DNA of 64,000 nucleotides from Trypanosoma brucei (Eukaryota): contig CP000069.1 of the NCBI GenBank assembly GCA_000002445.1, positions 1,536,001-1,600,000 on the forward strand, given 5' to 3'. The stretch's first letter is position 1; each line of letters begins with the position of its first letter. A program made the position numbers and the translations under genes. The notes under the pieces are model-generated. The model made no database searches and was not told where the DNA came from. It worked only from the letters and a program-made list of their open reading frames with translations. This document shows, in pieces, positions 6,996 through 63,350 of the stretch.

Positions 6996-8947
6996 ATTTT
7001 TTTTTATATCTCCATTTTCACCGCTTCTACACGGTATTGAAGCAGCTTATAGTTACGGAGTTAGTTTTTTTCCCTGCTTTTCTTTGAGGCGTCGGCCGCC
7101 AACTAGGTTGATTTTGTCCAAGGCAAAAAAATAGAAGAACGGAAAAACTATTGCCTCAGTGCAGCAGCCGCTTTACTTCGTTGAGTTGGTTCGGAGGCTT
7201 TCTTTTTTGGTCCTTTTGCAAGCTCTGTGATCGATTTATTCCGGCACAATTAACTGTTTTACATGTCCCCTCCTTGTCCTCGTTCACTTCAATGCCTCTA
7301 CATATCTCTAGGGTAAATATCTCGGTTTTTTTGTCAGGAGACCATCACCGTCACAACTTGCGAGTTTTATATTTTTATTACCATGTCTGTACGCACAAGT
7401 ACCGTTACTAAATGCACGGGAATTGTTTACTGCTGTTGCGTATTGTTAGGTTTTTTCGCTGGAATTGGCAACGGCTCACACAGTCTGCTTTGCAACTTCC
7501 TTTACATAGCTGCCATCAGACCTCTCGCTAAATTAGCGTGTTGTTTTCTTATTGGCATTATTGGAACCTTACCCATGTATGACAGTCTTCGCGAAGTTGT
7601 GACAGCTCCCGTGAATGTAACTCTTTTAATACGACGATTTTTAACAAGTGCAATCTAGCGCCCGCTGTTAGTTCTATTCCTCTCCGCTACTTATTTCCTT
7701 TTTTCTTACTTAACGATAAAGAAAGCTGTAGGGTTCCAAATTACATACGGGAAACGGATTCCCTTTTCTGTTTTCTTACTGCTGAATTCGATCCACTTGT
7801 ACTTTTCTAACTCAACTCGTTTCCGACATGCCAAATCTGCCATTCAGAGTTGCGTTTAACATTTTACATGCTAAAACAGAAAATAACTAAATTTGTGTGG
7901 CCATACAATAACTTTACCAATTTGGTTGCGTCTCAAAACAACTATGCCGCACTATTTATATAGTATCTCATGATACGATAAAGCTTTTTCTACCTTTTAT
8001 TTATTTTTTGACGCATTCTCCTGCTTTCTGCTAATCCTTCTAAACTTTTAGGCGGTCTCAACACTTTCCGCAATATTGGGGCAATCATCAGTTAGTTGAT
8101 TTGCTTATTCTTACTCATGCTTTTGGCTATGCAGTACAGAGAACTCTTGTATCAATTACACGTTTTTTCGATGAACTTTTTTTGTCGTACCAGTAAAAAA
8201 AATAGTGGAGCCTTGCCATTAATTGTCTCTGCTTAATAATGTCCTGTTACTGTTTATTTCTGTGATATTTTAAGTAATATTTGCTTTATTCGTTTTTCAA
8301 GCACGGTAATTCATCGGTAGTCATAGTTTTAAAATCATAGAACAAATAAAATTATATTGTTTACCATAAGTATTAGATATTATTACTATATCTTAGGATA
8401 AAAAATTTTACGTTACTTTACAGTCACACAGTCCCTTCCCCATGCTTTTTCATCTACTACTGCTGTTTCTTCGCAACGAAAATAAGAATTCGCTATCAGA
8501 ATAATAACCAGAAATGTCACCGCTATTGCAGATGTAGCACCTATCCATTTTTTAGTAAAATACTGAGCATCATATCTTCCTTCTGTTGTCTTTATTCCTT
8601 ACGCTGTAATGCATATACTTCTGTTTCATTACATGCATTGTTTCCTTCTTGTCCACTTTCTGTCAGAACTTCTTCCAGTACAGTAGAAACTCGGTTTAGA
8701 TTTCAAACTATGCTGTTTCTCTTCTTATTGTCATCCATCATCTCCTCGCGTATGATTGCCATCTTCATTTTTGTGTTTCAAGCTGCACATATTCCATCTA
8801 TGTCTATCTTTTTATTTCTAAGTTACTCTTAATAAAATCATTGGTGTGCTCTCTGCCTTACTCTCTGTCACTTACTTTAATTTCACCATTTAAAATATTT
8901 TTAGTGCTTCCGTTTTTTTAATGCATTTGGTGACCACTATTTTCATT

Positions 8948-8990: not shown

Positions 8991-9269
8991 CTTTTTCTGT
9001 TATAACTCAAACTTATATTCACATAATTAGAAAAAAATTATAATGACACTCATCTTTAATACTCTATCACCTTCCTGATTTGCACCCCTACGCACTTTTC
9101 ATACACATTTTACTATATCTATATTTTCAAAATAAATATTCATTATTTTTCAAATGCTTGACAAAAATTATTAAAATATATCACCTTTTAGTATATTTTT
9201 TAAAAACAGGAAATTTTATAAATTTAAACCAAAATATTTTAGAGTACTTTAAATATAATAGCAAAAATG

Positions 9270-9560
9270 CGAGCCAAAGAAAATCTTTGTTAATGACAAC
9301 AAAATTTCTTCCTGTGGTTTTTTTTCATCCTTTCTTCCTGTTGCTTCGTTCGTTACTTCTGCTCCTGCTTGTTGGTCCACCCAACTCATTGTGCACTTTT
9401 TCTTGGTTTTCTTTGCTTCTGAGTTCCATTCGCAGGGTTCTTGGTAATATCGTTATTTATCTTTGGCGTCGCAGTCTTTTTCCGTTTGTTCTCGCTTTTC
9501 TTTGCTAGAGGTAGGTACTTGGTCGCCAAGTGACTGCATTTTCTGCACTGGTAATTCTTC
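9270..9560 (-). pseudogene. VSG C-terminal-domain / 3'-end remnant, truncated at the ingi insertion
   Basis: Minus-strand translation gives '...EPCEWNSEAKKTKKKCTMSWVDQQ...KKPQEEILLSLTKIFFGS', a CxW..C C-domain pattern. The 3' end ('gcaaaaatgcgagccaaagaaaatctttgttaatgacaacaaaatttcttcctgtgg') is homologous to the 3' end of the VSG pseudogene at 55090-56530. There is no N-domain upstream. Confidence 0.5.
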
Positions 9561-9738
9561 CTCCAGGCTAAAAATCAATACCTCCCTTTTTTCTGCTCCA
9601 ATTTATTGCCTTGTTTGTTGTCCTATGACCGCTGCTTTTAATTTGGTTGCCTCTGCCTGCTCCAGTGCTTTTCCTCTTCCCATTGACTTTTTTACGCAGT
9701 CTACGTCTTCGAATGCCGTCTGTTCTTTCTATCTGATA

Positions 9739-9816
9739 CCCTGGAGATGCCGGCCACCTCAATGTGGTGCCAGGGTCCAGTACCCCGTATCATCGGGGGA
9801 AGCCAAGAGCCAGCAG
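9739..9816 (+). promoter_or_regulatory. Pr77 hallmark (ingi/RIME/L1Tc 5' internal promoter / ribozyme-like region)
   Basis: The first ~78 nt of the element match the Pr77 signature shared by ingi/RIME, L1Tc and SIDER. Confidence 0.7.
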
Positions 9817-10238
9817 CGTTCCTTTCATAGGGAACACTGCTGTGCTCCGGCTACGGCATCATACAGCACAGGGATCAGCAGCGTCTTGCTGGGACATCGT
9901 TTTTCATTTGTCGGTCCCTGAGCACGTGCCAGCGTGCCATCAGCAGTATATCATCCGCACTAAGATGCTGCTGTCCGGTGATGTGGAAGAGAATCCCTGC
10001 CTGTCGTTTCACGGGATGCAGTGGAACTGCGCCGGGCTATCTCAAGGAAAGAGATTAGCACTCCACAAAACCCTTGTTGATGAGCGGATCGCCTTTTGTC
10101 TGTTGAGCGAGACAAGGATGACGCCTGGAGAGGCGGCTTGCTTTAGCGTTGCTGGCTACCAACATCACGGAATAGCTCGTAACTGCAAAGGATGAGGTGT
10201 ATCAATACTAGTGAGAGGACATACCAGTCGAGACCGGT

Positions 10239-11100
10239 ATGGCCGTTGTTGGTCGCATTGAAAAAGTGCATGCAACAATTCACCTTGCACGTGGAACGGC
10301 GCTGACTGTCACGTCGGCATACATCCCACCAAAACACACCTTCACGGCAACTGACCTAGATACGCTTCTGACGACTGACGGTGCCCAGCTCATCGGTGCA
10401 GACGCTAACGCACACGCGTTGGCATGGGATCGCGCGAGCCCACCAAATACCAAGGGTGAAACCCTCACACAGTGGTGCATTGACAACCAGTTTCTGGTCT
10501 GCAACACTGGTGAGTGCACCAGGTACGAGCGCCACCACGGGGAGTCCACCCCTGATGTGACACTGTCAAGGAATTGCACAGTGTACACGTGGACATCGCT
10601 GTATTCTCCCGATAGCGATCACCATCACATATTTTTCGACGTTATCTTTGGAGACGACACAGATGCACTGAGCTGCCCGCGGCTTCGAAAGCCCATGTAC
10701 GCATGGCTAAAAGCTGACTGGAGGAATTTCCGTCTCAAGGTTGACGACCTCTGCAGGAAAATTGGTAGAGAGAAGAATGTCAACACCCTGGAACAGATAT
10801 TGAGCTCCGACATCTGCATTGCGACGAAGGTCTCCGTCCCCCGTGGCTGCAGAGCAACGCCACCACATTGGACACCTGAGCTCGCGAAACTCGATGAAGA
10901 GATCGCTGGATGCGGACCCTCCCACCGAAGGGAAAAGTTGGTAGCCACGCGTAAGCAGATCCTGGACCGTACCACAAAGAAGAGATGGAGCACGCTATGC
11001 TCCAGACTTGCGGTGTCAGACCGCTGCAGTTGGCACATTGTCAAGAAGGTATATGCGCCACGACCACTAACCACACCGGCTGTACTTGTTGATAACGCGG
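10239..11100 (+). pseudogene. ingi ORF fragment: apurinic/apyrimidinic-endonuclease-like domain
   Basis: A 407-aa ORF piece reading '...ALTVTSAYIPPKHTF...GADANAHALAWD...' has EEP-fold character. It is out of frame with the neighbouring pieces. Confidence 0.6.
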
Positions 11101-11386
11101 CCATCACGGACTACCGTCAAGCTGAGAGGTTCAGTAAACTGTACTCTTCCCGCGCAAGAAGGCACCCCGACTCACACCCACCGGCACCAATAAAGACGAT
11201 AGCGAGTGAGTTCAGTCCCATCACGATGGCTGAACTACGGAGATCGATCAAACTGCTACCGAGTGGATCCGCAGCCGGACCTGATTGCTTATACAACGAG
11301 GCACTGCAACATCTCGGCAGAACAGCGCTGAATGTTGTTGTGAGGCTATTCAATGAGAGCCTACGAACGGGAGTCGTGCCGCCTGC

Positions 11387-12496
11387 ATGGAAGACTGGTG
11401 TTATCATCCCCATCCTGAAGGCCGGAAAAAGGCGGAGGACCTCGATTCTTACAGGCCTGTGACGCTCACGAGCTGTCTCTGCAAAGTCATGGAGCGCATA
11501 TTTGCCACGAGGCTTAGAGACACTGTTGAGTCCCAGCTGACGCCGCAGCAATCAGGCTTTCGCCCCGGATGCTCAACGCTCGAACAACTCCTGCACGTCC
11601 GCGCTGCCCTCTGCCGCCCCACGCACCAATATCGTACGGGTGCTGTATTCGTCGACTACGAGAAGGCATTTGATACAGTAGACCACGACAAAATTGCGAG
11701 GGAAATGCACAGAATGAAGGTATCACCCCACATTGTGAAGTGGTGCGTATCATTTCTGAGTAACCGAACTGGCAGAGTGAGATTCAAGGAGAAGCTTTCC
11801 AGAAGCAGAACATTTGAGCGAGGAGTGCCACAGGGAACTGTCCTTGGCCCAATCATGTTCATTATTGTCATGAACTCGTTGAACCAGCGCCTTGCAGAAG
11901 TGCCGTTACTGCAGCACGGATTCTTTGCAGACAACCTGACGCTACTTGCGAGGCACACAGAGAGGGATGCCATCAACCACACACTACAATGCGGCCTAAC
12001 CGTGGTGTTACAGTGGCCAAAAGAGTACTTCATGTCTGTCAACGTAGCGAAAACGAAGTGCACACTCTTCGGGTTTATAGAGCGCCACCCCCTTACATTA
12101 CAACTGGACGGCAAAAGAATAGGAGCTGGCAGGACACCGAAGCTTCTAGGAGTAACATTCCAGTGTCTGCAGGGGATGGCAACACATGCTGCAGAAACGA
12201 GACGCAAGATGGATTTTAGACTACTGCAGATAGCAGCCATCTCAGCTTCTACATGGGAGCCAAGAAGACAAGTACTGAGAGCTTTTTATCTAGCACTCGT
12301 ACAGGCACACACCATGTATGGCATTGAGGTATGGTACTGGGACGCTTCGGAACGAAGTCGCGACCTCCTTGCAGCAGCACAACACAAAGCCAGTCGCATC
12401 ATAGCTGGCATACCGCATGGGACGCGCAAAGAGGACTCTCTGCTGGAAGCAAACCTCCTGCCACTCAAGACGACCGCTCTTGTGCGCAGCACGTAA
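11387..12496 (+). pseudogene. ingi ORF fragment: reverse transcriptase domain
   Basis: A 369-aa ORF reading '...YRPVTLTSCLCKVMERIFATRL...GFRPGCSTLEQLL...AVFVDYEKAFDTVDHD...GVPQGTVLGPIMF...FFADNLTLLA' shows the canonical RT motifs 1-5. Confidence 0.8.
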
Positions 12497-12699
12497 TTCA
12501 TGCTGATGTGTGAGTCACGAGGCGGATGTTTGCGCCACAGTGCTGAGAAAGTATACCACAGCAAACACCCAGTCAGAGTCTTACATTCCCGCATCATGCG
12601 GTCCTATCCCCACCTCCACATTGAGCCACGCGAGCACCCACTAGAGACATCGACGCTCCGCCACAGTTGCCGACCGCTATTTCACACGCAGATAAAGCC

Positions 12700-14460
12700 C
12701 GTATGCGCTGATGACCCTGACGATGTCAAAAGGGAGGCTTCCGAAAAATGGATTGCACGGCATTTTGCACGGAGGGGGAAGGAGCCACCGCGGCGAGAGC
12801 ACTACGAATTGTGGACTGATGGATCCGTGTCCCTCGGTGAGAAGTCCGGAGCAGCTGCCCTACTCTATAGAAACAACACGCTGATTTGTGCACCCAAGAC
12901 CTGAGCAGAGGAACTCTCATGCAGTTACAGAGCGGAATGCGTAGCATTAGAGATAGGACTGCAACGGCTGCTAAAATGGCTTCCGGTATACAGAAGCACA
13001 CCGAGCAGGTTGTCCATCTTCTCTGACTCGCTGTCAATGTTAACAGCACTGCAGACAGGCCCCCTAGCCGTAACGGACCCAATTCTAAGACGACTATGGA
13101 GGCTTCTGCTTCAAGTTCAGAGAAGGAAGATACGTATCCGACTGCAATTTGTGTTTGCCCATTGTGGCGTGAAACGGAATGAGGTTTGCGATGAAATGGC
13201 CAAAAAGGCCGCTGACTTACCACAGTTGCGAGACACATGGATCCCCGACATCATTGCTTATGCGAAGCGAGTGCTTAGATCGGAAGAAGTCCATGAGAAC
13301 ACTCATAGGTTTGGTATCACGGGCAACCACTTTCCAACAAAACATAAAGAAGAACTGACGAGGGAAGAAGAAACGGCACGGGCACGCTTTCGGGTTGGGT
13401 CTTCAAGACACTATGGATGGATGTTGCGAAAGATCAACCCGAGTGTGCCTCCACAGTGCCGATGGTGCAACCCGCAACATGCAGCGATAGGACCAACAAT
13501 ACAAACAGCCCCACCTGTTGCGACACGCACTCTTCAGAGAACCTCCGAATCAAACAAATGTACGGAATGTGATGCCACATACCAATGCCGCTCGAGTGCT
13601 GTAACGCACATGGTAAACAAACACGGCTTTGTGCGAGCTGATGCCCTCCGGAGGATCAAATACGGCGATGCAACACCCGCAGTGGATATCCCCCCGGAGC
13701 CCCCTCCAGTGGTGGCGATCGTTCCTCTACCATCGAGCACACGAGTCCCGATGAGACCGCAGGTGCTTCATTGTACCCTCTGTGCCTCCAAATTCGCAGT
13801 GCCAGGCCGACTATTACACCACCTTAGAACAATACATGGCATAGGCAGCGGTAGTTGCCGCGTGAAAAGGGGGCGAGAGAACGAAGACTCAGTGCAAGGA
13901 GATGGTAGCGTCCCAGCAGCGCCAGCCTCTCAGGATACACGGAAGCTGCCGTTTCAATGTGACTTGTGCGAGGCGAGCTTCGGTACACACTCTTCCCTGT
14001 CACTACACAAGAAATTCAAACATAAGAGCATAGTGACGGAGGACGGTACCGTGGTGTTGGTGCAATTCCCTCGTAAGCGTGCCCGTGAGGGAAACGTTGA
14101 CGTCCCGGGGAAGGGCGAGGTGCAGTGTGGTGTGTGCCAAAAAAGTGCTCAGTTGCGGGGCCTCCCTCATCCGACACTGTAAGGCTTTCCACAAAGGTGA
14201 GGGAGTCGAGCTTAAATGCAGCAAAATCACAAAATTGGGTGCCACTGATTCCCCGCATACAAACACATCCATGTTGGTGTGCCAGACAGGCGGAAGGCAG
14301 TGTGCTAGCAAAACTGGCCTCACCCTACATCAAAAGAAGATGCACGGTATGAGAGCAGAGCGCACTGTTACGAGCCAACGCGGCGACTGCAAAGAAACGT
14401 CGCTGCACCTGATGAGCTGTCCAGGTTTGAAGGAGTTACGTGTCAGGTTTGCGGTAGAGG
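12700..14460 (+). pseudogene. ingi ORF fragments: RNaseH-like and C2H2 zinc-finger C-terminal region
   Basis: 'HYELWTDGSVSLGEKSGAAALLY' is the RNase H DxxS/TDGS motif. ORF 13010-14182 carries several Cx2Cx12Hx3-4H fingers. Confidence 0.65.
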
Positions 14461-15027
14461 GTGTGTGTGTACAAGATGTATGTTTCTCTAAAAGGCTGGC
14501 GCAATTTCTCATTGCGGTTGAACGGAGCCGGCCGCAGGTGAAGTCCTCACCTAAGGTAAAAGTCATACAACCCACTCTCCCTTCTGCAACTTCCCCCTTA
14601 TTTCTGAGAGTGGAGCTAGCAGGAAAAGCACCGGACGCATGAATAGTCCAGACACCCTCAGAGACAGAGGGGGTATGCAATCAACAAGCAACAGAAACAG
14701 AAAGAGGGAGAGAGAATAATAAACGAATAACAAAAATCAAAACAAAAGGATTGCTAATTGACATCTTCGGGAGAGTCTGGGGAGGGGTTCTTTTCGCCCC
14801 ATCTGCTGTAATGTGTTCAACTGCGGAGCTACAACAAAAATTATAGAGGGTGTGTTAGGATGAATAAAAAAGGGAGACTCTGCCACAGTCGCCAGACCGA
14901 TAGCATCTCAGGGCTCTACGGTGATGGCTGATGGCCGCGCCAGTGGGGGGAAACTCTCACGAAGACACGAAGAAAATTCAAAAAAAAACGAACACACTCT
15001 TCTTCGCACCCTTGTTTGGTGGTTAAG

Positions 15028-15575
15028 TAGAGTGCTTGTCGAACATTGTACAAGGGTAGATCCCAGGGGGCGGAGAGTATCTAGCTTACACTAAGAATGA
15101 ATCTGCCTCAATGTGGCGCCAGGGTCACGTACCAGAAGAGAAATCGACTGGAAAGCCAAATGTTCCATCCAAAAGTCGGTTGCAATACTGAATATGCTGT
15201 GGCTGCTCCATGAAGAAAGAACCATTACTTAGTGTTGCACCACGGTTCAGTACCCTGCTCAGGTGGGGGAACCAAAATCCCTGACCCAACTTCCGGCCGG
15301 GGAGGCAGATGGATATGGTAAACATGGTTCAGATGCAATGTGGGAGGGATCGAATGGGCGTCAAGTGGAGACCACCCCCCTAGACACGCACACATGCGGT
15401 CTCTCACCCGTGGGTATCAATTCTCCAAAAAACAGGGAATTTCAGTGGGTAGGCACGCTGGTCTCCAGCGCTGAGTCCCACACTACCATATCGTCGTGGC
15501 GTGGTGTGCGTAAATGCATTTCCTCCTTACCATCGGGTGGACAGACTGCATGGTCCTGAAGGTTGCGCGAGGGGA
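15028..15575 (+). mobile_element. ~550-bp dispersed element, copy 1: tRNA-like segment, then a Pr77-like motif ('CTGCCTCAATGTGGCGCCAGGGTCACGTACCAG'), a body, and an A-rich end; unclassified, possibly a SIDER/DIRE-like retroposon
   Basis: It is homologous in inverted orientation to 60285-60862. The segment ~15077-15353 is 100% identical to the other copy, and the flanks are ~80-85% identical. It starts with A-box/B-box-like motifs 'TTTGGTGGTTAAGTAGAG...GGGTAGATCCC' and ends 'GGGGAAAAAG'. It sits 40 bp 3' of the ingi poly(A). Confidence 0.6.
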
Positions 15576-15598
15576 AAAAGTAACGGTTGATTCTATCT

Positions 15599-16130
15599 TT
15601 AATCAGTTATTTTAAGCATTTCATTAACCGCCTTTTCAAACTTTTTGAATTCCCAAACTCTAGCTATTATGTCACCTTTATTGAAGTGTGCTTTATAGTT
15701 TGCAGGCCACTTTAACATATGAGTTAGTTTCTTTTGTTCCTCTTCTTGGCATGTTGCTTCAAAAAAAAACATGCGCACCTCTCCATATGCTCCCTGTGAT
15801 CTGAGTTCAAAGTCAAGTACAGCCGAAGCGCATAACACTTGGTAGTCGTTACAAATATAATGGGATAAACTTGTTTCTCTTTTACTACATCCTCCTCGCT
15901 AAACTTCCCTTCATTTTCCGCAGTGTTTTGTATAAAATACCCCACAGCGGTTTCATATTTTTCTCCGTCAGTAACAATAACATCAGATCCGTCAACAGTT
16001 ATCACAATATCCTCATCAATTTTATCCTGTTTTTTAAAAATTTACATAACCCATCTAGCTCTTTTGACATTGCTATGCAAGTTTCCCATAGCAATTGTAA
16101 TAATTTTAACATGGCTTAGTTTCGCACTCA
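15599..16130 (-). pseudogene. Small-ORF family member, copy 1 (in-frame stop and frameshift); function unknown
   Basis: Minus-strand translation gives '...SAKLSHVKIITIAMGNLHSNVKRARWVM*IFKKQDKIDEDIVITVDGSDVIVTDGEKYETAVGYFIQNTAENEGKFSEEDVVKEKQVYPIIFVTTTKCYALRLYLTLNSDH...'. It is colinear with the copy at 53781-54149 and ~80% identical at the nucleotide level. Confidence 0.5.
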
Positions 16131-17232
16131 GTATGTTTCCCGTCGTGTACACTTAGAGAAATAACGTGCTTAAACACACTAAATGTAATAACAATGATAA
16201 TAGCAAAGTTTTCAAGATACAAAACTATATTCCTAATCTACATTTAAAGTTTAAAAGTGCTATAAGAAAAATATTGAAACTTTAATAGAAGATGCCATTT
16301 GCGCCAATAAGATGTTTACATATATGAGTAATTCCTTAACATAGTTATGATATATGTGCCGATGTGTGTATTATCAGTGTATGAAACTTATTTTTGAAGG
16401 CGTACCTATAATTTTTTAAAAAAACTTTACTTTCAGTAACACATAGTGCCGCACACTATGTGTATTGCGTTGCTTTGCTGCATTGACAATTAGTGCCTAT
16501 GCATTTTTATTGGAATGAAGGTATCTAGTTGCAGTGATTAATTCTAACATGCTATAAAATTTGCCACCCTCGCTTGATGACTACCTCGACCATTCGCTAT
16601 CGTCAAGTGCCTCCAATCAAAATGGTTTCCGAACTATTTATATTGTTGTTTCAATCACATCCGTAGAAGAATCTATTTATTTGTGAGTGTATTTTAGAAC
16701 ACAACCTTCTCCTATATATTATTTTCTTTTATGCTTGTTGCAGTGCATGTTTCACTCCACATTTTTTCTCATATTTATTTCCTTCCGTCGCTGCTTATGC
16801 ATATTACGCAGTGACTTCATTTAGCCTTCAAACTGTTCTTTGTCCCTGCCTCTTCCCCATCTATTTGTGTATGATGAAAGCTATCGCCACTTTTCAACTT
16901 CAAACTGCGCATATTTTATCTATATCTCCTTCTTTCTTTTCTTAAATAGCATTATTTGTGTCTTCTCCCTGTCTTAATAACTGCACCACTCATTCACTTA
17001 CTCTCATCATACCATGGTAATTTTTTTCAACGGTTTAATTTTGTCTCTCCATTCGATCACTTAAAAAAACTTTCCTCATAATGTTAATAAATGCGCTTAA
17101 AACACTCTTTTATTATTACTATTAAAATAACAGATTAGAATATCACTCATTTTTAATATTCTATCACTGTACACGTTACACCCATAGGCCACTCTCATAT
17201 ACATTTTACTATTTGGAACATTTTAATCAAAA

Positions 17233-36271: not shown

Positions 36272-36745
<474 letters not shown>

Positions 36746-47646: not shown

Positions 47647-48174
47647 TCATTTTCGCGCCTTTTCACGTTTGCACATTTGGTCTGCTTGTGTCGGAATGCC
47701 GTGTTGGACGTTAATTTTGGCCTGTGTCCCTTGTTGGAACGGATGGCTTTGCACAGAATATGTAGGCTGCGCAGCTAAATGAACTCCCATCAAATAACCA
47801 TGTCGCTTTTGCAGCAGTCCGCTAGCTTTTTGAATCGCCGTGAGTCGGGCTTGGTGTTGGGTTATCGCCTCGATCCCAGCGGCTGCTGCTACTTCGTCGG
47901 TAGCCGTAAGTGTTGGACTTTTTCCGCTGTCGCTTTCTTTTGCTGCTTGTAGGCGCCATATTGCTGGCTGCGTTAGTATTTCCTTCGCATTAGTTGCTGT
48001 TTCTGTTGCCTTTTGCGTATAGGCCTTTGCTTCCGCCAGCGAGAACGCTGCTTCAAGGCACGGTGTTGTCACTTTTGTATGCTCTACATCGCCTGTTGTG
48101 TCTGTGACTGCTGCTGCTGTTACAGATGCTATGAGTAGAATTACACTGCTTTTGAGTTCGTAGGAGGTGTGCAT
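47647..48174 (-). pseudogene. VSG N-terminal fragment (type-A-like), truncated
   Basis: ORF 47647-48207 reads 'MHTSYELKSSVILLIASVTAAAVTDTTGDVEHTKVTTPCLEAAFSLAEAKAYTQKATETATNAKEIL...'. No downstream continuation is visible. Confidence 0.55.
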
Positions 48175-50280
48175 CTTCCGCTGCCTTACACATCTCTGTG
48201 GCTGCATAGGCGCTGGTAGAGAGATTTTATCACTCTTTTATATTGGAGAGTATTATCAACGCCTGGTGTATCGTTGAGGCTTCTGCTCCCAGTTTCTCTC
48301 AATCTTCTTCCAGGTTATTGCTGTTATTTTTTTCTTGGTAGTCGGCTACAGCTTCAAGCCTGCTAAGGTTAATTTAGGAGAAAAATGTACGTTAGATGTT
48401 GAGTTCAGCTGTTTTCTTTGATTTGCCGAGTTGGCTGTTGCAAAAGGTTAGAAATACAGAAAGCTGTAAAGATCATAAAATTAATTTAGGAAATGTACAC
48501 ACATCACTATTTTTTACTGTCCGGTTGGATACAGTTGCATTATTAATAGTTTCCTTATTTTCATCTACTGGAGCTGAAATTTAAGCTGTTTTCACGTCTT
48601 TAATTAGGCGTTTGTTAGAACAAAAATGCATGCTTTCATGTGATAACTCTTTCAACATTCCTAATAGTAGGAGTCACTAAAACTAATTGCTTTTACACTA
48701 TTTTGTGGTTCAAAAAAGCTGTTATCGCCGTTTTTTGTTTTTTGTTTGGATCCGCTATTCTGCTCGGTGTTGCTCTGTTTAAATTTTCTGCTCATTGTTG
48801 AAGCTTTTGTCGTAGCTCGGTGCACCGGTGCAAATGAATGCTTGTCCTTTCATAGTCAGTATCATTTTTGCTATTGAGGGACTAACTTTTAAACGAATTA
48901 TGCGGTCTTTCTCAGCTTCCTTTTCAACGATAAATTGATGTGTATTCACAATAACACTTTAGGTTGATATATGCGTTCTACGAATAACTCGTGAGAGAAT
49001 ATTGAAAATGGTGCGCTTGGTCGCCATCTAAATGTGCAGCCTTTTTGCTATAACATTATTTTATTCATTTCTTTTCGGATATTTTGTCACAATTTATAAA
49101 TATAAAAATAATGCAAATACTTAAATTATCACCCAAAATGATTGTTTTTTTCATATGGTCAAGTTGTAAAAAGGTCGGTTTCACGATAAAAACTCACAGA
49201 AATAATGAAAGATAATTCACCTAAATTTCGTTTTAAGACAAGTTTTCGCTTTAAGGTCTAATCTATATCATCTTATATCTATATCTAAAACACCTAATAT
49301 TTATGGCTGTTGTGTGCCTCTATGGCAGTACAACTCTCGTTGTGCGGTTTCACCTTAAATGACTATATAATTCTGACTTTTCTGCCTCACGCATGTTCTT
49401 TGTTACTTTTTTACTTTGTCCTTTTATCCTGCTTTATTGTCGATCTCTTTAGTTTTTTCTTGGCAGTTGCGGCATTATTCCACTAATTTGCTTTGACAGG
49501 TGTGATTATACTCCATCAATAACGCATTAGCATGTATGCTTATATGAATTAGACGCTCCTTGAACTGGTAAAGCGGTTTTGTCATTGAGCCAGTAGGTGA
49601 GAGGCAGTGTATTATTTTAAACTTTCTTTTCTTCATAAAAGTTCATCGGGACATGCATACATGCGCTACTTTAATAGTTCCTGCGTTTCTATTGTTATTT
49701 TCCTACGGTCAGTAATCTGTTCAAAGTCCTGGTATTAACACTATCTTCTCGACAATATTATACATTTTCTCATAAATCTGATTAATTATCGCTATATCTT
49801 TTGAGAGAACCTCGATATTACCTAACACTAACCTAATCTCCTCAATCTACCCGGGCATCTTTTCACCTTCCGACGTTATGGTCTGCGAGCACTTCTGCTG
49901 TTGCACCTATCCATTTTTCTGAGAAATAAAGGCTTTCACCACCTCTTCTTCTTATTTCTCTTGATGTGTTATATTTCTCTCAGCTGTTTTGCGTTATATA
50001 TTGTGTCATTTTATTCCGTATTTTTTCTCCTTTTATCACTTGTTACGCGGACAACTTACCGACTCTATCGTCCATATAAATTGCACTCTGCTTGTTTTTC
50101 GTTTTCCCTTACATCACCTGCTTAATTATGATGATTATCAGAGACATCACTGTGTTTAAATAAGCGCATATTATATATCTATTCCTTTTTTGTGCGTCTC
50201 CTCAAAAAAATATATTCCTCTTCTACTCCCGCTCTCACCCATATTTCATCCTCGAAATTGGTTTACACTTTTTTACTTTA

Positions 50281-51421: not shown

Positions 51422-51572
51422 AAAAAAAAATTCAAGAGAAGAAAAGGAGAAAAATGTTAGCCATCGACAAAATAATTCACATGCGCAGACAGCCAAAAAA
51501 ATAATGATATTATTTCCGGGGAACTTACGTGTTAAAATATTTCAAATTCAAGCAAGAAAAGTTGAGGGTATA

Positions 51573-53097
51573 TTAAAAAAGCATGGCCAACAAAGCAGCA
51601 GCCATACTCAGAGCCAATTTCTGATTCAGAAGAAAACTAGAAGAGCGGCACTTTTTTGTCTCTTTATCATCTTCACCATCTTTTCCCTTCCTCCATGCAC
51701 AATTTTGCTTATCTCCTGTTTTGTCATTTTCAGAATCATGTTGATTTTGGTGCCTTGCACACCGAGATGAATCTGCTCTTGTTCCTGCTGCTGTTGGTGC
51801 TGATCTTGCTTTGGGTTTGTATTTTTTTTTTGCATCATAGTCACGGCCAGCCTTGTTGCAGTTATCTGGGCTAGCATGGTGTTTGTCGCATTCTTGTTTA
51901 ATGCTAAGTTGCTTACCTTCCCCTGGAGTTCCTGCTCTTGGTGAGCCGGCTGTTGCCTCCACTGCGTGGTTGCGGCCGTACTCGTGTTCGGCTTGTTTGG
52001 ATAGGTTGTCTATGTCTTTTATAAGAAGCTGCTTTTGTGCCACTTGTTGCTTGTATTCGGAAAATAGTTTCTTTGCTGTTAGTAGATGCCCGATCCAGGC
52101 TATTTTCTAAAACCTTGTTGTGCCATCTTTGATCTGGTCCGTGTATTCAACGCAGACAATTGATGTCCCCGTGCAGACGTTGCCGTTGACTGTTCGGCCT
52201 ATCCCGATCTTGTTCTGGTTGTCTGCTAACTGTCCCAGCTGGCCTAGAGATGCTGCTAGTGCGAGCGTTATGCCTTCATCCAGTTGCTTACCTAGATTCG
52301 TTTTGGGGCATTTGCTTATAAGAGTTTCTAGAGCAAATGCGTTAAGGTTGCTTCCTGTTAAGACGGTTCCTGCTATGTTGGTTCCTCCAGCACAGCTGTC
52401 CTGGTCATTGGTTACTGCGCACAGAAAAAACATGTCGAACGCTATTGATTTTCCGGCGTTTTCTTTTGTGCACTGCAGCACCTTGGTTGTCGCCGTGTTG
52501 ATGTCGCTACATACTGGGGCGGCTGCGGTGCCGATTAATGTTCCTGAGCAGAAAGCTTTGGTTAGTGCGTTGTTTATTGCGTTTCCGAGGGATTTACCGG
52601 TGCTGTCTCGGGGCTCCGTGTTTAGTTGTTCGAGCAAGTTCTGTGCTTCCTGGGTTGACATGTTTATGATGCTTATTTGGTAGTCTTTTAGGTTGCTGTT
52701 ATGCTTGGGCCTGTCTTTGGCGTTCCAGTCGCTCGTCGGGTTGTTAACCGCCTCCGCGGCTGTTAGCCACCGCGACCATTGTTTTGACCAGTCCAGTCCT
52801 TTGGTTGAGTCGCTATTGGCCTGCTTATACTTGCCCCACCCCTGTTTTGCCTCGGCTTTTTCAAACATTTTCCTCCAATCCGCTGGTGCTACCGACATGT
52901 TCAGCTTCAGTAGGCTGTCATAGCTTGGTGGCGCCGGCATTGGTGAGCAAGCAGGTAATTTCATGTTTTGAGTTACGTCGCATGCCAAGCAAAGGGAATG
53001 AAATGGGGCCTGGGCGCCCTTTGTCGGCTGGTTCACACAGGGGAGTTATCAGCAACGCCATTAGCGGCAGAAAGTATGGAGTTACACGCATCACCAT
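51573..53097 (-). pseudogene. VSG pseudogene (type-B N-domain; frameshifts)
   Basis: ORF 52918-53289 contains the signal peptide 'MVMRVTPYFLPLMALLITPLCEPADKGRPGP'. ORF 52107-53036 is the N-domain ('...SVAPADWRKMFEKAEAKQGWGKYKQ...'). ORF 51573-52043 is the C-domain and ends in the canonical '...DKTGDKQNCAWRKGKDGEDDKETKKCRSSSFLLNQKLALSMAAALLAMLF*'. Confidence 0.85.
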
Positions 53098-53276
53098 CTT
53101 TATCTTTGTGAAAAAACATTTAGGGCCGTTGTGTAATTTAGCGTTGGCGCCTGAAGATTTGTCGAGTTTACGAAACTTCTCAGTGGCGATGAGAGCTTGT
53201 TTAAAGGAAGTTTTTGATTTAGTCATGTGCTGCAGTGTGAGAGAATTCGGTTGTGTTAGATTTAAGTCACAACTTC

Positions 53277-54149
53277 TTAGCCTTGACAAAATCTTTTTCT
53301 ACAACTGCGGCTCCACAAATACTCCATATTCAATATACCATTTCCCACCATATATCCCATAACTTTGAATTTCCCCCAATGGTTCGTATTAAATTTCCTT
53401 CTCTCAAATTCTCTATAACAACTAAGATTTTTTACAATAAGCTTTGCTTTTTCCTCCAATGCAATTAGTTGTTGTGTAAAATGAATGAATGGCGCCTCTT
53501 CGACTTCACTATGTGGAATAGTAAAAAATCTCTCATCAAAACTAATCGCTGAGCAACAGCTTCTTCCTGAATTGCACTCCATATTAGCAAAGATTTATAA
53601 ATACTTTGTTACGACCATTATTCTTCACTTCCTTTCGATAGGTCTTTAAAATCTAATTCAAATTTCTTAAACGCCAACTCTCTCGCTATCAAGCCAACAC
53701 CACTAAGACAGTGTTTGCCACAAGAATTAGACTTCAGAAAATGAGGTATTTTTTATCCTATTCTTTCCTGTATCCAATATTTAAAAACAATACACATTTC
53801 TCCAACGCTCTTTGTGATCTGAATTATCGAGCAACTCTAACTGAGATGCATAACACTCTGATGTTGTCATGAATATAATAGTGTAAATTTGTTTCTCTTT
53901 GATGACATCTTCTTCACTACCTTTTTCGTCATTAGCTGCACTATTTTGTATAACATATTCCACAGCATTCAAATACTTATCATGTTCGGATATTATATCA
54001 GCCGGTCCATCAACAGTAATGACAATATCCTCATCACTTGCATTCTGTTTTTCTAAAAATTCCATAACCCATCTAGGCCTTTTAATATGACTATACAACC
54101 ATCCCATTTCAATTGTAATAATTTCAACATTTCTTACTTTGGCACTCAA
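53277..54149 (-). pseudogene. Small-ORF family member, copy 2 (122-aa ORF plus a downstream out-of-frame continuation); function unknown
   Basis: ORF 53781-54149 reads 'MSAKVRNVEIITIEMGWLYSHIKRPRWVMEFLEKQNASDEDIVITVDGPADIISEHDKYLNAVEYVIQNSAANDEKGSEEDVIKEKQIYTIIFMTTSECYASQLELLDNSDHKERWRNVYCF'. It is ~80% identical at the nucleotide level to 15850-16130. It sits between a 70-bp repeat at 54750-54830 and the VSG at 51573-53097. Confidence 0.5.
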
Positions 54150-54749
54150 TATGAGTCTACACCATTCTTTAGTTGCATGAGTTTGTCACTACAACCACAA
54201 ATACTCTTTGTTTTCTCATGGTAATTCTGTGTTTGATTTGCCGTTGTTTCTCTTCAAGAGATATTGAGCTTAAATAAACTAAATGAAGCAAAAGTACAAA
54301 AATACTAAACTTAGTGCCCTAATCTATCTTTAAAATTTGATAGGGTTATAAGAAAAACTTATAAAAGCTTAATAAAAAATACAGTTTGGCCACTAATGTC
54401 TTTACATAAGCAATCCCTTGACATTGTTGTGATACAGCTGTTGAAGGGTCTGTACTTAGTGTTGGTGTCTTCCATTTGAGAAATCATTTACATTCTTTTA
54501 GTTTAAGAAGATAGCTTCAATTTCACCTAGTTAAGCACACTAATCTTTGACTATAACTCATTATCACCTCCATCATATCTTCGTTTACGATGAGATCCAA
54601 TTGTCATATCGATGTTTAAATCCGCATATATTCAACATAAATGAGTCTTTTTTCCCCTTCCTCTCTCACTTACTCATTTACTTGTTGTTCACCGTTACCA
54701 TTATTTTAAATGCTTTTATTTTTTCGTTGACTTAGTGTTCTTCACCGCT

Positions 54750-54830
54750 TATATTGTATTATTATTATGCACACTCACATCGGTTACTCATATTAATATT
54801 ATTATAGTTTATATTATAATTCTAAGTAAT
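54750..54830 (-). repeat. 70-bp repeat (degenerate, 1-2 units)
   Basis: 'attattattatgcacactcacatcggttactcatattaatattattatagtttatattataa'. Confidence 0.6.
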
Positions 54831-55089
54831 ATCATAAAAAACATAAAATAAACTACAAAAAACCCAATTAGAATAGCACTAATTTTTTATGCTCTATCAC
54901 TGTTTTACTTTACACTCAGAGGCCGATGTTACACGAATTTTTCTAAATTTTAAAATTTACGTTAAAAAGTGTTAAAATAGAAGACATTCTTATATTATAA
55001 AGCAGATTTTATTAACTTCATAAAATTGAGCAAAAATATTTTATAAATTTAATTACAAAAGCAAAAATGCAAGCCAAAGAGGGGCCTTA

Positions 55090-56530
55090 TTAATGATAAA
55101 AGAATTTCTTTCTGTGGTGTTTGTGTTTGGAGCTGCTGTTGTAGTTTTTGCATGGTCTCCTCCGCATTTGCTATCTTTTAATTCACACTTTTCCCGGTTG
55201 CAGTCATCTTCTTTGTCCCTTTGCATTCGATACTGGTGGGTCTGTAGCGGTTATCGTCTTAATCTGCACTTGATTTGCATTCATACCGCGACAGAATGCT
55301 AGTGCTGTTGCGTAGCCACCACTTGTGGCGATAGCAGGTAATGATCGTTTCAGTTGATCGTCGCCGAGAGGGTTGGGAAGTTTGGTGTTAGACAACGTGT
55401 TGAGGAAAAGTTCCTTGACCTTTTTTGTTTTGTCGCCCAACAAATTTTCTACTTCTTTTTTAGGGTGTCTGTTGTTTGGGCTGTGGTCGCCTTGTCTGTT
55501 GTTACGAGCCACGCAGCTTTCTGGGAATCTCCGTCGTTGCTGAGCTCTGCGATTGTGTTATCTTGCAATGTAGGTGTTGTTTGGAAGACTAAGTTTTTCA
55601 GTTGGCGTATTACGTCTGCGGTTTGTGCTACTGTTAGTAATGTGGTCGCTGTGTGCCCGGTGTGTTCGGAGTTCTTGGTTGAGCTGCCTGGCGCCTGGCT
55701 CTGTTGCTTGGCTTGCAGTGTTGTCGCCGTCGTATAGCGTGTAATCGCCTTCACTCCCACATGGTGTGTGTTTTTACCAGCTCGTTAACCGCGTTGTTGC
55801 CGGCGGTGTCAGAGCCGCAGCCGATGCCCGTCCCGCCTAGTGGATGTTTGATATTTGCTCCTGCCCCGTGGTATGTTATAGTGATCTTGTAGTTTATGAA
55901 TGCGAAGGCGTCGTCAGGTGTCAGCGACACTTGTGTTATCTCTGCGTGTCACCGTGCTGCTTCTTTGAGCTTGCTCTCCGTGCTTGAGTCTTGTGGGCAT
56001 AGGTCTTGTTTTTCCTGCTTTGCATTGACATACGTGGTGCATGTCGCCGCTGTACCGCCTGTTGCCTTGTTCCCACTGTCGTTGTTTGTTTCGCTCGCCT
56101 TGGCCTTGGACACACCTCCGGCTTGGTTCGCCATTAGCGCCGTTAGGGCTCCTAGCCGGCGATTTAGCAAGTTAAGTAGCGGGTCTATTGTCTGTTGGAT
56201 GGTTTCTATCTCCCCCTGTAGCTTGGTTCTTCTTTTTTCTGCTGCTGCTACCAGTGCGAGATACTGTTGTTGCTGGCGCAGTGTGGCCATTGCGCAGGCT
56301 GCTAGTTCGAAAGTTTGTTGCTCTTTTTTAAGCTGGTCCAGGTTTGTTATTGGAGTTGCCAGCTTATCGGAAATGGCTGCTTGTGTCTCTCTGATGAATT
56401 TTATTTGCTGGTAAGGCGTGGTTATTGTCGCGGCTAGGACGCCCGCTGATTCTGCTGCCACGTTCCGTACCTGTGCTGCCAGTGCTGCTGCGAAGATTAT
56501 TAAAGTCGCCGTGCTTTGATTGCAGGTCAT
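55090..56530 (-). pseudogene. VSG pseudogene (type-B N-domain; multiple frameshifts; alternative C-terminal type)
   Basis: ORF 55949-56530 reads 'MTCNQSTATLIIFAAALAAQVRNVAAESAG...QQYLALVAAAEKRRTKLQGEIETIQQ...'. ORFs 55449-55760 and 55204-55512 follow in other frames. The 3' end '...DDCNREKCELKDSKCGG...NTNTTERNSFIINKAPLWLAFL' is homologous to the remnant at 9270-9560. Confidence 0.75.
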
Positions 56531-59975: not shown

Positions 59976-60284
59976 ATTTATTGTGTGTTGATGGTTATAC
60001 GCTTAGATGCTTTGCACTCTAAAATAGATGCGTTGGTTTCATTTCAAAGGAAGTTAGGGAACTCTTGAGGCGCCTTGCCGTGTACTTTGGCACTTACCCT
60101 CACGGGTTGGTACCTGTCGTTCATTTTTATCAGAAAAAGTTGTTCTTTATGCGTAGTGCTAATACTTCTTCCGGGTTTTGTGGGTGGTATCGCAACGATG
60201 CCTTGCCGCTGGAGGCTCAGATTTCCGCTTTGGCGTAAATTCCTTTTTAAAATTCTATACTCGTTGACTTTTTTAAATTTTCCA

Positions 60285-60862
60285 CCGAGCAACCGTCAGG
60301 TCCATGCAGTCTGACCAGCCGAGGGTAAGGCTTAAATGCATTTATCCGCACCACGCCGTGAGGACATGGTAGTGTGGGACTCAACGCTGGAGGCCAGCGT
60401 GCCTATCCACTAAAACCCCCTTTGTTTCTTTGAGAATCGACACATACAGGTGGGCCACCGCATGTGTGCGATTCTAGGGGGCGTTGTCCATTTGCCGTCC
60501 ATCCGATCCCTCCCACATTGCATCTGAACCATGTTTACCATATCCATCTGCCTCCCCGGCCGGAAGTTGGGTCAGGGATTTTGGTTCCCCCACCTGAGCA
60601 GGGTACTGAACCGTGGTGCAACACTAAGTAATGGTTCTTTCTTCATGGAGCAGCCACAGCATATTCAGTATTGCAACCGACTTTTGGATGGAACATTTGG
60701 CTTTCCAGTCGATTTCTCTTCTGGTACGTGACCCTGGCGCCACATTGAGGCAGATTCATTCTTAGTGTAAGCTAAATAATCTGCGCCCGCGGGGATTCAC
60801 CCAGGAATTATCTGCGACGAGCACTCTACTTAACCACTAAACCAGGGGCCGGTTAAGTTGCT
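60285..60862 (-). mobile_element. ~550-bp dispersed element, copy 2 (inverted relative to copy 1)
   Basis: The reverse complement carries the same tRNA-like segment ('GGTTTAGTGGTTAAGTAGAGTGC...GGGTGAATCCCC'), the same Pr77-like motif, a ~277-bp 100%-identical core (60507-60783) and the 66-aa ORF 60531-60731, which is identical to ORF 15125-15325. Confidence 0.6.

Positions 60863-63007: not shown

Positions 63008-63350
<343 letters not shown>

What the first reader, a model, noticed from the sequence alone, without database searches (positions are those of the whole stretch)
15599..16130. Two-member small-ORF family embedded between VSG cassettes
15850-16130 and 53860-54180 are ~80% identical at the nucleotide level. 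Both encode on the minus strand a ~120-200-aa product ('...VDGxDxIxxxxKYxxAVxYxIQNxAxNxxKxSEEDVxKEKQxYxIIFxTTxxCYA..NSDH...') with no VSG features. Copy 2 has an intact 122-aa ORF. Copy 1 has an in-frame TAA where copy 2 has Glu ('WVM*IF' versus 'WVMEFL') and a frameshift, after which it runs on for another ~55 aa. Copy 1 ends exactly where the 550-bp element begins, while copy 2 has a further ~500 bp. That is consistent with copy 1 having been truncated by the retroposon insertion. In copy 2 the element sits between a 70-bp repeat and the VSG, where normally only the non-coding co-transposed region lies. I could not assign it to a known ESAG, RHS or GRESAG family from the sequence.
Basis: seen in the sequence. 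Interest (0 to 1): 0.55.

Follow-up and report, generated by a model that had tools for sequence, protein, structure and literature searches.

The report
Two decayed ESAG3 pseudogenes in VSG array
The two "small ORFs" are broken, independently decayed copies of ESAG3, a well-known Trypanosoma brucei expression-site gene recently reported to be the VSG O-glucosyltransferase. Relics of this gene are already known to be common in subtelomeric VSG arrays, so the finding is ordinary.

Summary
The repeat is real, at 73% nucleotide identity (not about 80%), and it has a coding origin: dN/dS is 0.22 in one minus-strand frame and above 1 in the other two. It is not a new small-ORF family. A profile of the two copies hits T. 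brucei ESAG3 (368 aa) at E = 1.6e-55.

**Copy 2 (54315→53267, minus strand)** covers the whole ESAG3 gene. Its start codon is lost (ATG→ACT), and it has six frameshifts and three in-frame stops. The "intact 122-aa ORF" is only ESAG3 residues about 64-185.

**Copy 1 (16230→15586)** covers codons 1-245. It has a lost start codon, a deletion of about 90 nt, three stops and one frameshift. It is cut off where a 570-bp TbSIDER1-like retroposon plus an ingi element begin.

No lesion is shared between the copies. Each is closer to functional ESAG3 (61% and 68% amino-acid identity) than to the other copy (52%). Catalytic residues are hit in both.

Both copies lie about 450-470 nt downstream of a degenerate 70-bp repeat core, upstream of a VSG or a VSG remnant. 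This arrangement is already described for expression sites BES7 and BES15. The literature states that ESAG3 copies are spread through subtelomeres and are mostly pseudogenes.

Verdict: already known, low interest.

The parts
15586..16230 (-). ESAG3 pseudogene, copy 1, covering ESAG3 codons 1 to about 245. Lesions: ATG→ATA (16230-16228) followed by TAG (16227-16225); signal-peptide relic at 16224→16156; a ~90-nt deletion of codons ~27-62; TAA at codon 93 (16044-16042); a 1-nt frameshift in a T9 run near 15774; TAA at codon 240 (15601-15599); TAG at codon 242 (15595-15593). The 3' end is truncated at 15586.
   Evidence: tblastn of ESAG3 P0001; frameshift-aware protein-to-DNA alignment, 106/174 identical; N-terminal alignment; three-frame translation
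16231..16460 (-). 5' flank of copy 1, homologous to the 5' flank of copy 2 (presumed ESAG3 upstream/5'-UTR region)
   Evidence: blastn 16214-16352 versus 54299-54434, 73%; MAFFT alignments
53267..54315 (-). ESAG3 pseudogene, copy 2, covering the full length (codons 1-368 plus the native stop at 53269-53267). Lesions: ATG→ACT (54315-54313); frameshifts after codons 51, 178, 198, 275, 331 and 350; in-frame stops at codons 194, 241 and 244.
   Evidence: tblastn E 1.7e-80 in three frames; frameshift-aware alignment, 218/341 identical; N-terminus
54316..54540 (-). 5' flank of copy 2, homologous to that of copy 1
16700..16714 (-). Degenerate 70-bp-repeat core (TAGGAGAAGGTTGTG), 470 nt upstream of the copy 1 start
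   Evidence: motif search: 8 hits, all on the minus strand, against 0.03 expected
54758..54781 (-). Degenerate 70-bp-repeat core (GATGTGAGTGTGCATAATAATAAT), about 450 nt upstream of the copy 2 start
   Evidence: aligned with the copy 1 core; 3 mismatches to the core GTGTTGTGAGTGTG, which recurs before other VSGs
15009..15585 (+). ~570-bp short retroposon (TbSIDER1-like) with a short A-run at 15575-15579. Its 3' end abuts copy 1. A second copy lies at 60847-60278 (89% identity).
   Evidence: blastn. Its only similarity to the ingi 5' end is a 28-nt signature. The size matches the 571-bp TbSIDER1 consensus in PMC3820030.
9739..14989 (+). Degenerate ingi non-LTR retrotransposon, 5.25 kb. It starts with CCCTGGAGATGCC... 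and has an A9 run at 14981-14989.
   Evidence: Pfam Exo_endo_phos_2, RVT_1 and RNase_H on its ORF fragments; sequence
51576..53045 (-). B-type VSG pseudogene, about 220 nt downstream of copy 2; its 3'-UTR 16-mer is at 51529-51544
   Evidence: Pfam VSG_B 6e-29; 16-mer search
9249..9738 (-). Likely VSG C-terminal remnant (ends '...EEILLSLTKIFFGSHFCYYI*') on the far side of the ingi, followed by a VSG 3'-UTR 16-mer at 9168-9183. It holds no ESAG3 3' part.
   Evidence: translation. The tail resembles the VSG tail 'KEILLSLIRPLFGLHFCFCN*' at 55051. 16-mer. ESAG3 residues 236-368 score no better here than in control regions. There is no Pfam hit, so this part is inferred.

Best explanation
Both copies are non-functional relics (pseudogenes) of ESAG3. 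[quoted passage not shown] A 2026 preprint reports it to be the Mn2+-dependent O-glucosyltransferase that modifies VSGs.

Each relic sits inside a silent VSG array cassette, in the order 70-bp repeat, ~450-470 nt, ESAG3 relic, VSG.

The two relics descend from different, already diverged ESAG3 genes that were once under purifying selection. That accounts for the coding-type substitution pattern. They were then disabled independently. Copy 1 later lost its last third, together with most of the downstream VSG, at a site now occupied by a TbSIDER1-like element plus an ingi.

- **Shown:** the homology, the lesions, the positions and the lack of shared lesions.
- **Inferred:** the order of events, and that neither relic makes a working protein.
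For: **Identity**
- An HMMER profile of the two copies against 1.84 billion proteins gives P0001 (368 aa) at E 1.6e-55, with the match at residues 61-183.
- P0001's 90% cluster holds 15 sequences named ESAG3 from T. b. brucei and T. b. gambiense.
- tblastn of P0001 covers copy 2 from residue 52 to 368 in three frames (E 1.7e-80) and copy 1 from residue 63 to 236 (E 5.7e-51).

**Lesions**
- The frameshift-aware alignment lists them all. None is shared.
- The stops near codon 241 fall on different codons: 240 and 242 in copy 1, 241 and 244 in copy 2.

**Relationships**
- Amino-acid identity is 61% (copy 1 to ESAG3), 68% (copy 2 to ESAG3), 52% (copy 1 to copy 2), and 20-27% to chromosome-internal GRESAG3-like proteins.
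- dN/dS between the copies is 0.22 (bootstrap 0.10-0.40) over 170 codons, with 55/40/81 differences at codon positions 1/2/3. In the other two frames it is 1.16 and 1.33.

**Loss of function**
- Copy 1 has lost 4 of 18 family-invariant residues and copy 2 has lost 6 of 18.
- Of the catalytic residues named in the preprint (D110, D113, G215-G216, W242, E244/Q245, H297), copy 2 has D113A, G215V and a stop at E244. Copy 1 has G216D, a stop at W242, and lacks H297.

**Parent fold**
- My AlphaFold model of P0001 has pLDDT 85.5.
- Its best PDB matches are the LH3/PLOD3 glucosyltransferase domain (6wfv, E 6e-9).

**Context**
- The window is a Trypanozoon VSG array.
- PMC2567434 lists an 'ESAG3 ψ 3' of 70-bp repeat' in BES7 and BES15.
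- A third, differently broken ESAG3 relic lies about 170 nt upstream of a B-type VSG in a T. b. equiperdum array (L001).
Against: - No ESAG3 nucleotide sequence was available, so dN/dS of each relic against a functional gene could not be computed.
- dS between the copies is near saturation (1.5), so the ratio is rough.
- The frameshift in copy 1 lies in a T9 run and could by itself be a sequencing error. The stops, the deletion and the lost start codon cannot.
- Absence of transcription or translation of the 108-aa ATG-initiated ORF in copy 2 was not tested.
- No clean 12-bp target-site duplication flanks the retroposons, so how copy 1 was truncated is not settled.
Confidence: 0.95

Rival explanations
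1. A new family of small (~120-200 aa) protein-coding genes specific to VSG array cassettes.
For: - A 122-codon open stretch in copy 2.
- A coding-type substitution pattern between the copies.
- No Pfam hit for the fragment alone, and no hit in the word-indexed protein search.
Against: - The sequence aligns along the whole 368-aa ESAG3 once frames are followed.
- The open stretch corresponds to internal residues about 52-185 of ESAG3. It has no signal peptide and only half of the GT-A fold.
- Its first ATG is ESAG3's internal Met77.
- Copy 1 has a stop inside that same stretch.
- The flanking out-of-frame pieces are also ESAG3.
Confidence: 0.02
2. A duplicated non-coding spacer whose similarity has nothing to do with coding.
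For: The homology extends about 230 nt into non-coding 5' flank at similar identity, about 70%.
Against: - Differences are concentrated at third codon positions (55/40/81), and dN/dS is 0.22 in one frame only.
- There is highly significant protein-level homology to ESAG3.
Confidence: 0.01
3. Functional ESAG3 or ESAG3-related genes that only look broken because of assembly or sequencing errors.
For: - One frameshift in copy 1 lies in a T9 homopolymer (sequence).
- The 2026 preprint mentions about 50 intact ESAG3-related genes in subtelomeric and internal regions.
Against: - Copy 2 has six frameshifts and three substitution-type stops.
- Copy 1 has three substitution-type stops, a ~90-nt deletion and no 3' third.
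- Both have lost the ATG by substitution, and both have replaced family-invariant and catalytic residues.
Confidence: 0.02
4. The relics are dead as genes but matter as DNA. An ESAG3 tract between the 70-bp repeat and the VSG would offer extra homology with ESAG3 copies in expression sites. It would travel with the VSG during gene conversion. This is compatible with the best explanation rather than an alternative to it.
For: - Both relics, and a third in T. b. equiperdum, lie directly upstream of a VSG and downstream of a 70-bp repeat.
- BES7 and BES15 carry an ESAG3 pseudogene in exactly that position.
- The authors of PMC2567434 note that recombination breakpoints coincide with ESAG3 loci.
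Against: - At 61-68% amino-acid identity to expression-site ESAG3, and about 73% nucleotide identity between the relics, the tracts are probably too diverged for efficient homologous recombination.
Confidence: 0.1

Closest known systems
ESAG3 of T. brucei bloodstream expression sites (for example CAQ57304, Q26748; Fam53 sensu stricto)
   Same: Collinear homology over the whole 368-aa protein, at 61-68% amino-acid identity. This includes the signal-anchor relic, the DXXD region 'DEDIVI..DGSD', the 'LIARVWAFKKFE' strand and, in copy 2, the C-terminal 'KAKKL' plus the native stop.
   Different: The window copies are pseudogenes with a lost ATG, frameshifts, stops and a deletion or truncation. They are much more diverged than expression-site copies, which share one 90%-identity cluster in this database. 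They sit in silent array cassettes rather than upstream of the 70-bp repeats of an expression site.
ESAG3 pseudogene located 3' of the 70-bp repeats in BES7 and BES15 (Hertz-Fowler et al. 2008, PMC2567434)
   Same: The same order of elements: 70-bp repeat, ESAG3 pseudogene, VSG.
   Different: Those are telomeric expression sites; these are internal array cassettes. Sequence relatedness to the expression-site pseudogenes could not be checked.
GRESAG3 / ESAG3-related chromosome-internal genes (for example XP_823173 and XP_951520 in T. brucei; T. vivax and T. congolense homologues)
   Same: The same family and fold. They were detected by the same profile at E 1e-12 to 6e-5.
   Different: Only 20-27% identity to the window copies, against 61-68% for ESAG3 proper. 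The copies therefore belong to the ESAG3 clade, not the GRESAG3 clade.
GT domain of human LH3/PLOD3 (GT-A fold; PDB 6wfv, 6fxr)
   Same: The parent ESAG3 model matches it (Foldseek E 6e-9 to 4e-8). There is a weak Pfam GT_PLOD hit at E 0.005, below threshold. The preprint aligns D110/D113, G215-216, E244/Q245 and H297 with the LH3 catalytic residues.
   Different: About 15% sequence identity. The similarity is one of fold and mechanism in the parent gene only. The relics in the window cannot encode a complete GT-A domain.

Membership tests
ESAG3 (Fam53 sensu stricto) | Significant, collinear sequence homology to the 368-aa ESAG3 protein | tested here: met
   Profile E 1.6e-55; tblastn E 1.7e-80 for copy 2 and 5.7e-51 for copy 1; 218/341 and 106/174 identical codons
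ESAG3 (Fam53 sensu stricto) | Closer to ESAG3 than to the GRESAG3 lineage | tested here: met
   61-68% identity to ESAG3 against 20-27% to GRESAG3-like proteins of T. brucei, T. vivax and T. congolense. No formal tree was built.
ESAG3 (Fam53 sensu stricto) | Telomeric or subtelomeric, VSG-associated location in a Trypanozoon genome | tested here: met
   Flanked by VSG pseudogenes, VSG 3'-UTR 16-mers and 70-bp repeat cores. PMC6152948 describes such subtelomeric copies.
Functional ESAG3 enzyme (O-glucosyltransferase) | Uninterrupted ~368-codon ORF with an ATG and an N-terminal signal anchor | tested here: not met
   ATG→ATA in copy 1 and ATG→ACT in copy 2. Copy 1 has 3 further in-frame stops (4 with the TAG at codon 2), 1 frameshift, a ~90-nt deletion and truncation at codon 245. 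Copy 2 has 6 frameshifts and 3 stops.
Functional ESAG3 enzyme (O-glucosyltransferase) | Catalytic residues D110/D113 (DXXD), G215-G216, W242, E244/Q245 and H297, as defined in preprint 10.64898/2026.01.27.701950 | tested here: not met
   Copy 2: D113A, G215V, W241 stop, E244 stop. Copy 1: G216D, W242 stop, E244Q, H297 region absent. D110 is kept in both.
TbSIDER1 (for the ~570-bp element abutting copy 1) | ~571-bp element with an ingi-clade 76-79-bp signature, a 3' A-run, and no other similarity to ingi | tested here: inconclusive
   The length is 570 bp in two copies at 89% identity. There is a short A-run. Only a 28-nt signature is shared with the ingi 5' end.
ingi (Tbingi) | ~5.2-kb non-LTR element encoding an endonuclease, reverse transcriptase and RNase H, with the 5' signature and an A-tail | tested here: met
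   Pfam hits on ORF fragments. The 5' CCCTGG... signature is at 9739 and the A9 run at 14981-14989, giving 5.25 kb. The ORF is fragmented, so the element is degenerate. No 12-bp target-site duplication was found.

The most novel reading that the evidence does not exclude
Array cassettes that carry an ESAG3 relic between the 70-bp repeat and the VSG could be the donors of the 'ESAG3 pseudogene 3' of the 70-bp repeat' seen in BES7 and BES15. The relic would then be part of the co-transposed unit. It might add upstream homology that influences how, or how often, those particular VSGs are copied into expression sites. A remoter possibility is that the 108-aa ATG-initiated ORF of copy 2 yields a half GT-A fragment that interferes with assembly of the ESAG3 octadecamer.
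Probability: 0.08. Interest if true: 0.35.

Novelty: already known. Interest (0 to 1): 0.1.

Why it matters
- **Annotation:** two stretches that could be taken for orphan ORFs should be labelled ESAG3 pseudogenes, and the 122-aa ORF should not be called a gene.
- **Biological interest (modest):** the two relics are old, independently decayed members of a once more diverse functional ESAG3 repertoire. They occupy the co-transposed position of VSG cassettes. This is relevant to how ESAG3 pseudogenes came to lie downstream of 70-bp repeats in some expression sites.
- **Parent gene:** ESAG3 has just been reported to be the VSG O-glucosyltransferase, so a catalogue of intact versus dead copies has some value.
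- Nothing here is unexpected to a trypanosome genomicist.

Tried and rejected
- **Word-indexed protein search:** the 122-aa ORF found nothing. The same tool queried with ESAG3 found only ESAG3 itself.
- **Pfam and PDB sequence searches with the fragment or frame-joined reconstructions:** no significant hit.
- **AlphaFold on the two-sequence fragment alignment:** pLDDT 52.7, unusable, so no fold search was run on it.
- **Shared disabling lesions:** both copies change frame near 'NSDHKE' and stop near 'EEWW', which looked shared. Codon-level inspection shows different positions, so I rejected the idea of a common pseudogene ancestor.
- **Missing ESAG3 3' third beyond the ingi:** the score (41) equals the best control, so it is absent.
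- **Target-site duplications around the ingi, the 570-bp element or both together:** there is no clean 12-bp duplication. There is only an offset 13-mer, GTTNNTTCTATCT (9722-9734 and 15586-15598, 11/13 matches), of uncertain meaning.
- **Pfam on the putative VSG C-terminal remnant at 9249-9738:** no hit.
- **Identifying the source genome by exact look-up of two intact VSGs:** not on record.
- **Relatedness of the VSGs downstream of ESAG3 relics in the window and in L001:** only 25% identical, so there is no conserved ESAG3-VSG unit.

Full report
**Setting**

The window is a silent VSG array of a Trypanosoma brucei-group genome.
- Minus-strand ORFs every 3-6 kb hit Pfam VSG_B, Trypan_glycop and Trypan_glycop_C.
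- The VSG 3'-UTR 16-mer TGATATATTTTAACAC occurs 11 times, always on the minus strand, against 0.04 expected.
- The 70-bp-repeat core motif occurs repeatedly on the same strand, 6 to 11 hits against 0 to 0.5 expected.
- I recalled both motifs from memory. Their strong strand-specific over-representation in the expected positions is the test.
- PMC4858185 reports 70-bp repeats in T. brucei, T. evansi and T. b. gambiense but not in T. congolense or T. vivax.

**Checking the observation**

- blastn of the region against the window gives 15765-16135 versus 53783-54153 at 71.8% over 372 nt (E 6e-50). A second piece, 16214-16352 versus 54299-54434, is at 73%.
- One minus-strand frame is open in both copies for 118 codons, apart from one TAA in copy 1 at 16042-16044.
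- In that frame the differences fall 34/21/47 on codon positions 1/2/3, and Nei-Gojobori dN/dS is 0.25. In the other two frames it is 1.16 and 1.33.
- Over 170 frame-corrected codons dN/dS is 0.22, with a bootstrap 95% range of 0.10-0.40. dS of about 1.5 is near saturation.
- The similarity is therefore real, far beyond chance, and of coding origin.
- tblastn finds no third copy in the window.

**What it is**

- The fragment alone gave nothing in Pfam, in PDB sequences or in the word-indexed protein search.
- An exhaustive HMMER search with a profile of the two copies found 18 proteins. The best is P0001, 368 aa, E 1.6e-55, matching at residues 61-183.
- P0001's cluster consists of T. b. brucei and T. 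b. gambiense proteins named 'expression site-associated gene 3 (ESAG3) protein'.
- The weaker hits are ESAG-related proteins of T. brucei chromosome cores, T. vivax and T. congolense.
Copy 2 is covered from residue 52 to 368 in three frames (E 1.7e-80) and copy 1 from residue 63 to 236.

**Anatomy**

I wrote a frameshift-aware protein-to-DNA alignment and aligned the N-terminus separately.

Copy 2 (54315→53267):
- It spans ESAG3 codons 1-368 and keeps the native stop.
- The start codon is ACT.
- The signal-anchor relic reads 'TKFSIFVLLLHLVYLSS'.
- Frameshifts follow codons 51, 178, 198, 275, 331 and 350.
- In-frame stops replace E194, W241 and E244.
- Identity to ESAG3 is 218/341 codons.

Copy 1 (16230→15586):
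- ATG has become ATA and is followed by TAG.
- The signal-anchor relic reads 'FCILKTLLLSLLLHLVCLSTLFL'.
- About 90 nt are deleted, removing codons ~27-62.
- TAA replaces codon 93.
- A 1-nt loss lies in a T9 run after codon 182.
- Stops replace E240 and W242.
- The copy ends in codon 245.
- Identity to ESAG3 is 106/174 codons.

About 230 nt of 5' flank is also homologous between the copies.

**Independent decay**

- At first sight both copies shift frame after 'NSDH(K/R)E' and stop near 'EEWW'.
- At codon level the frameshifts are at different codons: 178 and 198 in copy 2, 182 in copy 1.
- The stops are also on different codons: 241 and 244 in copy 2, 240 and 242 in copy 1.
- No lesion is shared.
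- Each copy is closer to functional ESAG3 (61% and 68%) than to the other copy (52%). Both are far from GRESAG3-like proteins (20-27%).
- Together with dN/dS of about 0.2, this indicates two separately derived relics of diverged ESAG3 genes that were once selected. It does not indicate a private two-member family.
- Copy 1 has replaced 4 of 18 family-invariant residues and copy 2 has replaced 6 of 18.

**Parent function**

- Preprint 10.64898/2026.01.27.701950 reports ESAG3 as a Mn2+-dependent, UDP-glucose-specific O-glucosyltransferase that modifies VSG3.
- It describes a GT-A fold forming an 18-mer ring.
- Its catalytic residues are D110/D113, G215-G216, W242, E244/Q245 and H297. The D110N and W242A mutants are inactive.
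- P0001 has these residues at exactly those numbers.
- Independently, my AlphaFold model of P0001 with 13 family members has pLDDT 85.5.
- Its best PDB matches are the LH3/PLOD3 glucosyltransferase domain (6wfv E 6e-9, 6fxr E 4e-8).
- In the window, copy 2 has D113A, G215V and stops at W241 and E244.
- Copy 1 has G216D and a stop at W242, and lacks the H297 region.
- Neither copy can encode the enzyme.

**Context**

Reading along the minus strand, each relic lies downstream of a degenerate 70-bp repeat core.
- For copy 1 the core is at 16700-16714, 470 nt before its start.
- For copy 2 the core is at 54758-54781, about 450 nt before its start.

Copy 2 is followed after about 220 nt by a B-type VSG pseudogene (53045→51576).

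Copy 1 is followed by three things in turn.
- First comes a 570-bp element (15585→15009). Its only other copy in the window is 60278-60847, at 89% identity.
- Then comes a degenerate 5.25-kb ingi (14989→9739; Pfam endonuclease, RT and RNase H).
- Last comes a sequence that does not continue ESAG3. It ends in a VSG-like GPI-signal tail, followed by a VSG 3'-UTR 16-mer.

Copy 1's cassette probably once had the same layout as copy 2's. It then lost the last third of ESAG3 and most of the VSG where the retroposons now lie.

There is no clean target-site duplication, so the mechanism (deletion at insertion, or later recombination) is open.

The 570-bp element matches the published description of TbSIDER1: a 571-bp consensus, an ingi-type signature, an A-tail, and otherwise no similarity to ingi (PMC3820030). 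I could not align it to a consensus.

**Comparison with what is known**

- PMC4766357 says pseudogenic ESAG copies are prevalent in subtelomeric VSG arrays.
- PMC2567434 lists an 'ESAG3 ψ 3' of 70-bp repeat' in BES7 and ESAG3 pseudogenes in the duplicated 70-bp/VSG region of BES15. It notes these as exceptions to the rule that only the VSG lies beyond the 70-bp repeats.
- A further example is in a T. b. equiperdum array (L001, CM010678.1). A 5'-truncated, frameshifted ESAG3 relic at 7989-8784 lies about 170 nt upstream of a B-type VSG ORF. Its longest open piece is annotated there as a 95-aa 'hypothetical protein'.
- That VSG is unrelated to the one behind copy 2 (25% identity).

**Verdict**

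- The interpretation as an unassignable new small-ORF family is wrong.
- These are two ordinary ESAG3 pseudogenes in a VSG array, one of them truncated next to retroposons.
- Novelty: already known. Interest: low.

Noticed in passing
window 15009-15585 (+) and 60278-60847 (-): Two copies, 89% identical, of a ~570-bp short retroposon. Its only similarity to the ingi 5' end is a 28-nt signature. The size and features fit TbSIDER1, for which only about 10 copies per genome were reported. The signature lies about 97 nt inside the element rather than at its very 5' end.
   Followed up: partly
window 9739-15585: A 5.25-kb degenerate ingi ends in an A9 run at 14981-14989. Only 19 nt later the 570-bp element follows in the same orientation. 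The pair may have moved together (read-through or 3' transduction) or may be nested or adjacent insertions. No 12-bp target-site duplication flanks either element or the pair.
   Followed up: partly
window 9722-9734 and 15586-15598: A 13-mer, GTTNNTTCTATCT (11/13 identical), occurs near both outer ends of the ingi plus 570-bp pair. It is offset by 4 nt from the ingi 5' end, and the sequence beyond it is not ESAG3. It may be a decayed target-site duplication or chance.
   Followed up: partly
window 9249-9738 (-): A VSG C-terminal-like remnant lies directly against the ingi 5' end. It ends 'EEILLSLTKIFFGSHFCYYI*', very like the VSG tail 'KEILLSLIRPLFGLHFCFCN*' that ends at 55049-55051. A 3'-UTR 16-mer follows at 9168-9183. 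Pfam gives no hit.
   Followed up: partly
window 36307-36734 and 63048-63350: Very long triplet tracts, (TAT)143 at 99% purity and (TAT)101. These are TAA/TTA on the VSG-sense strand. The second tract overlaps perfect 70-bp-repeat cores at 63029-63054 and 63163-63188. They look like expansions of the triplet part of 70-bp repeats.
   Followed up: no
window 47650-48237 (-) and 55952-56614 (-): Long open stretches in VSG-like positions of the array that give no Pfam VSG hit at E ≤ 1e-3. They may be strongly decayed VSG fragments or something else.
   Followed up: no
L001 7871-8784 (T. b. equiperdum CM010678.1, record positions 229913-246200): A third ESAG3 relic (residues 74-368, with residues ~148-174 missing and several frameshifts). 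It is fused at its 5' end to a VSG C-terminal fragment and lies about 170 nt upstream of a B-type VSG ORF. Its longest open piece is annotated as a 95-aa hypothetical protein (RHW71741.1), the same annotation trap as in this finding.
   Followed up: partly
window 16002-16112 (-) and 54025-54130 (-): A short ATG-initiated frame ('MLKLLQLLWETC...' and 'MLKLLQLKWDGC...') overlaps the ESAG3 frame in both copies. It is out of frame with ESAG3 and stops at different points, so it is most likely a by-product of the conserved ESAG3 sequence.
   Followed up: no
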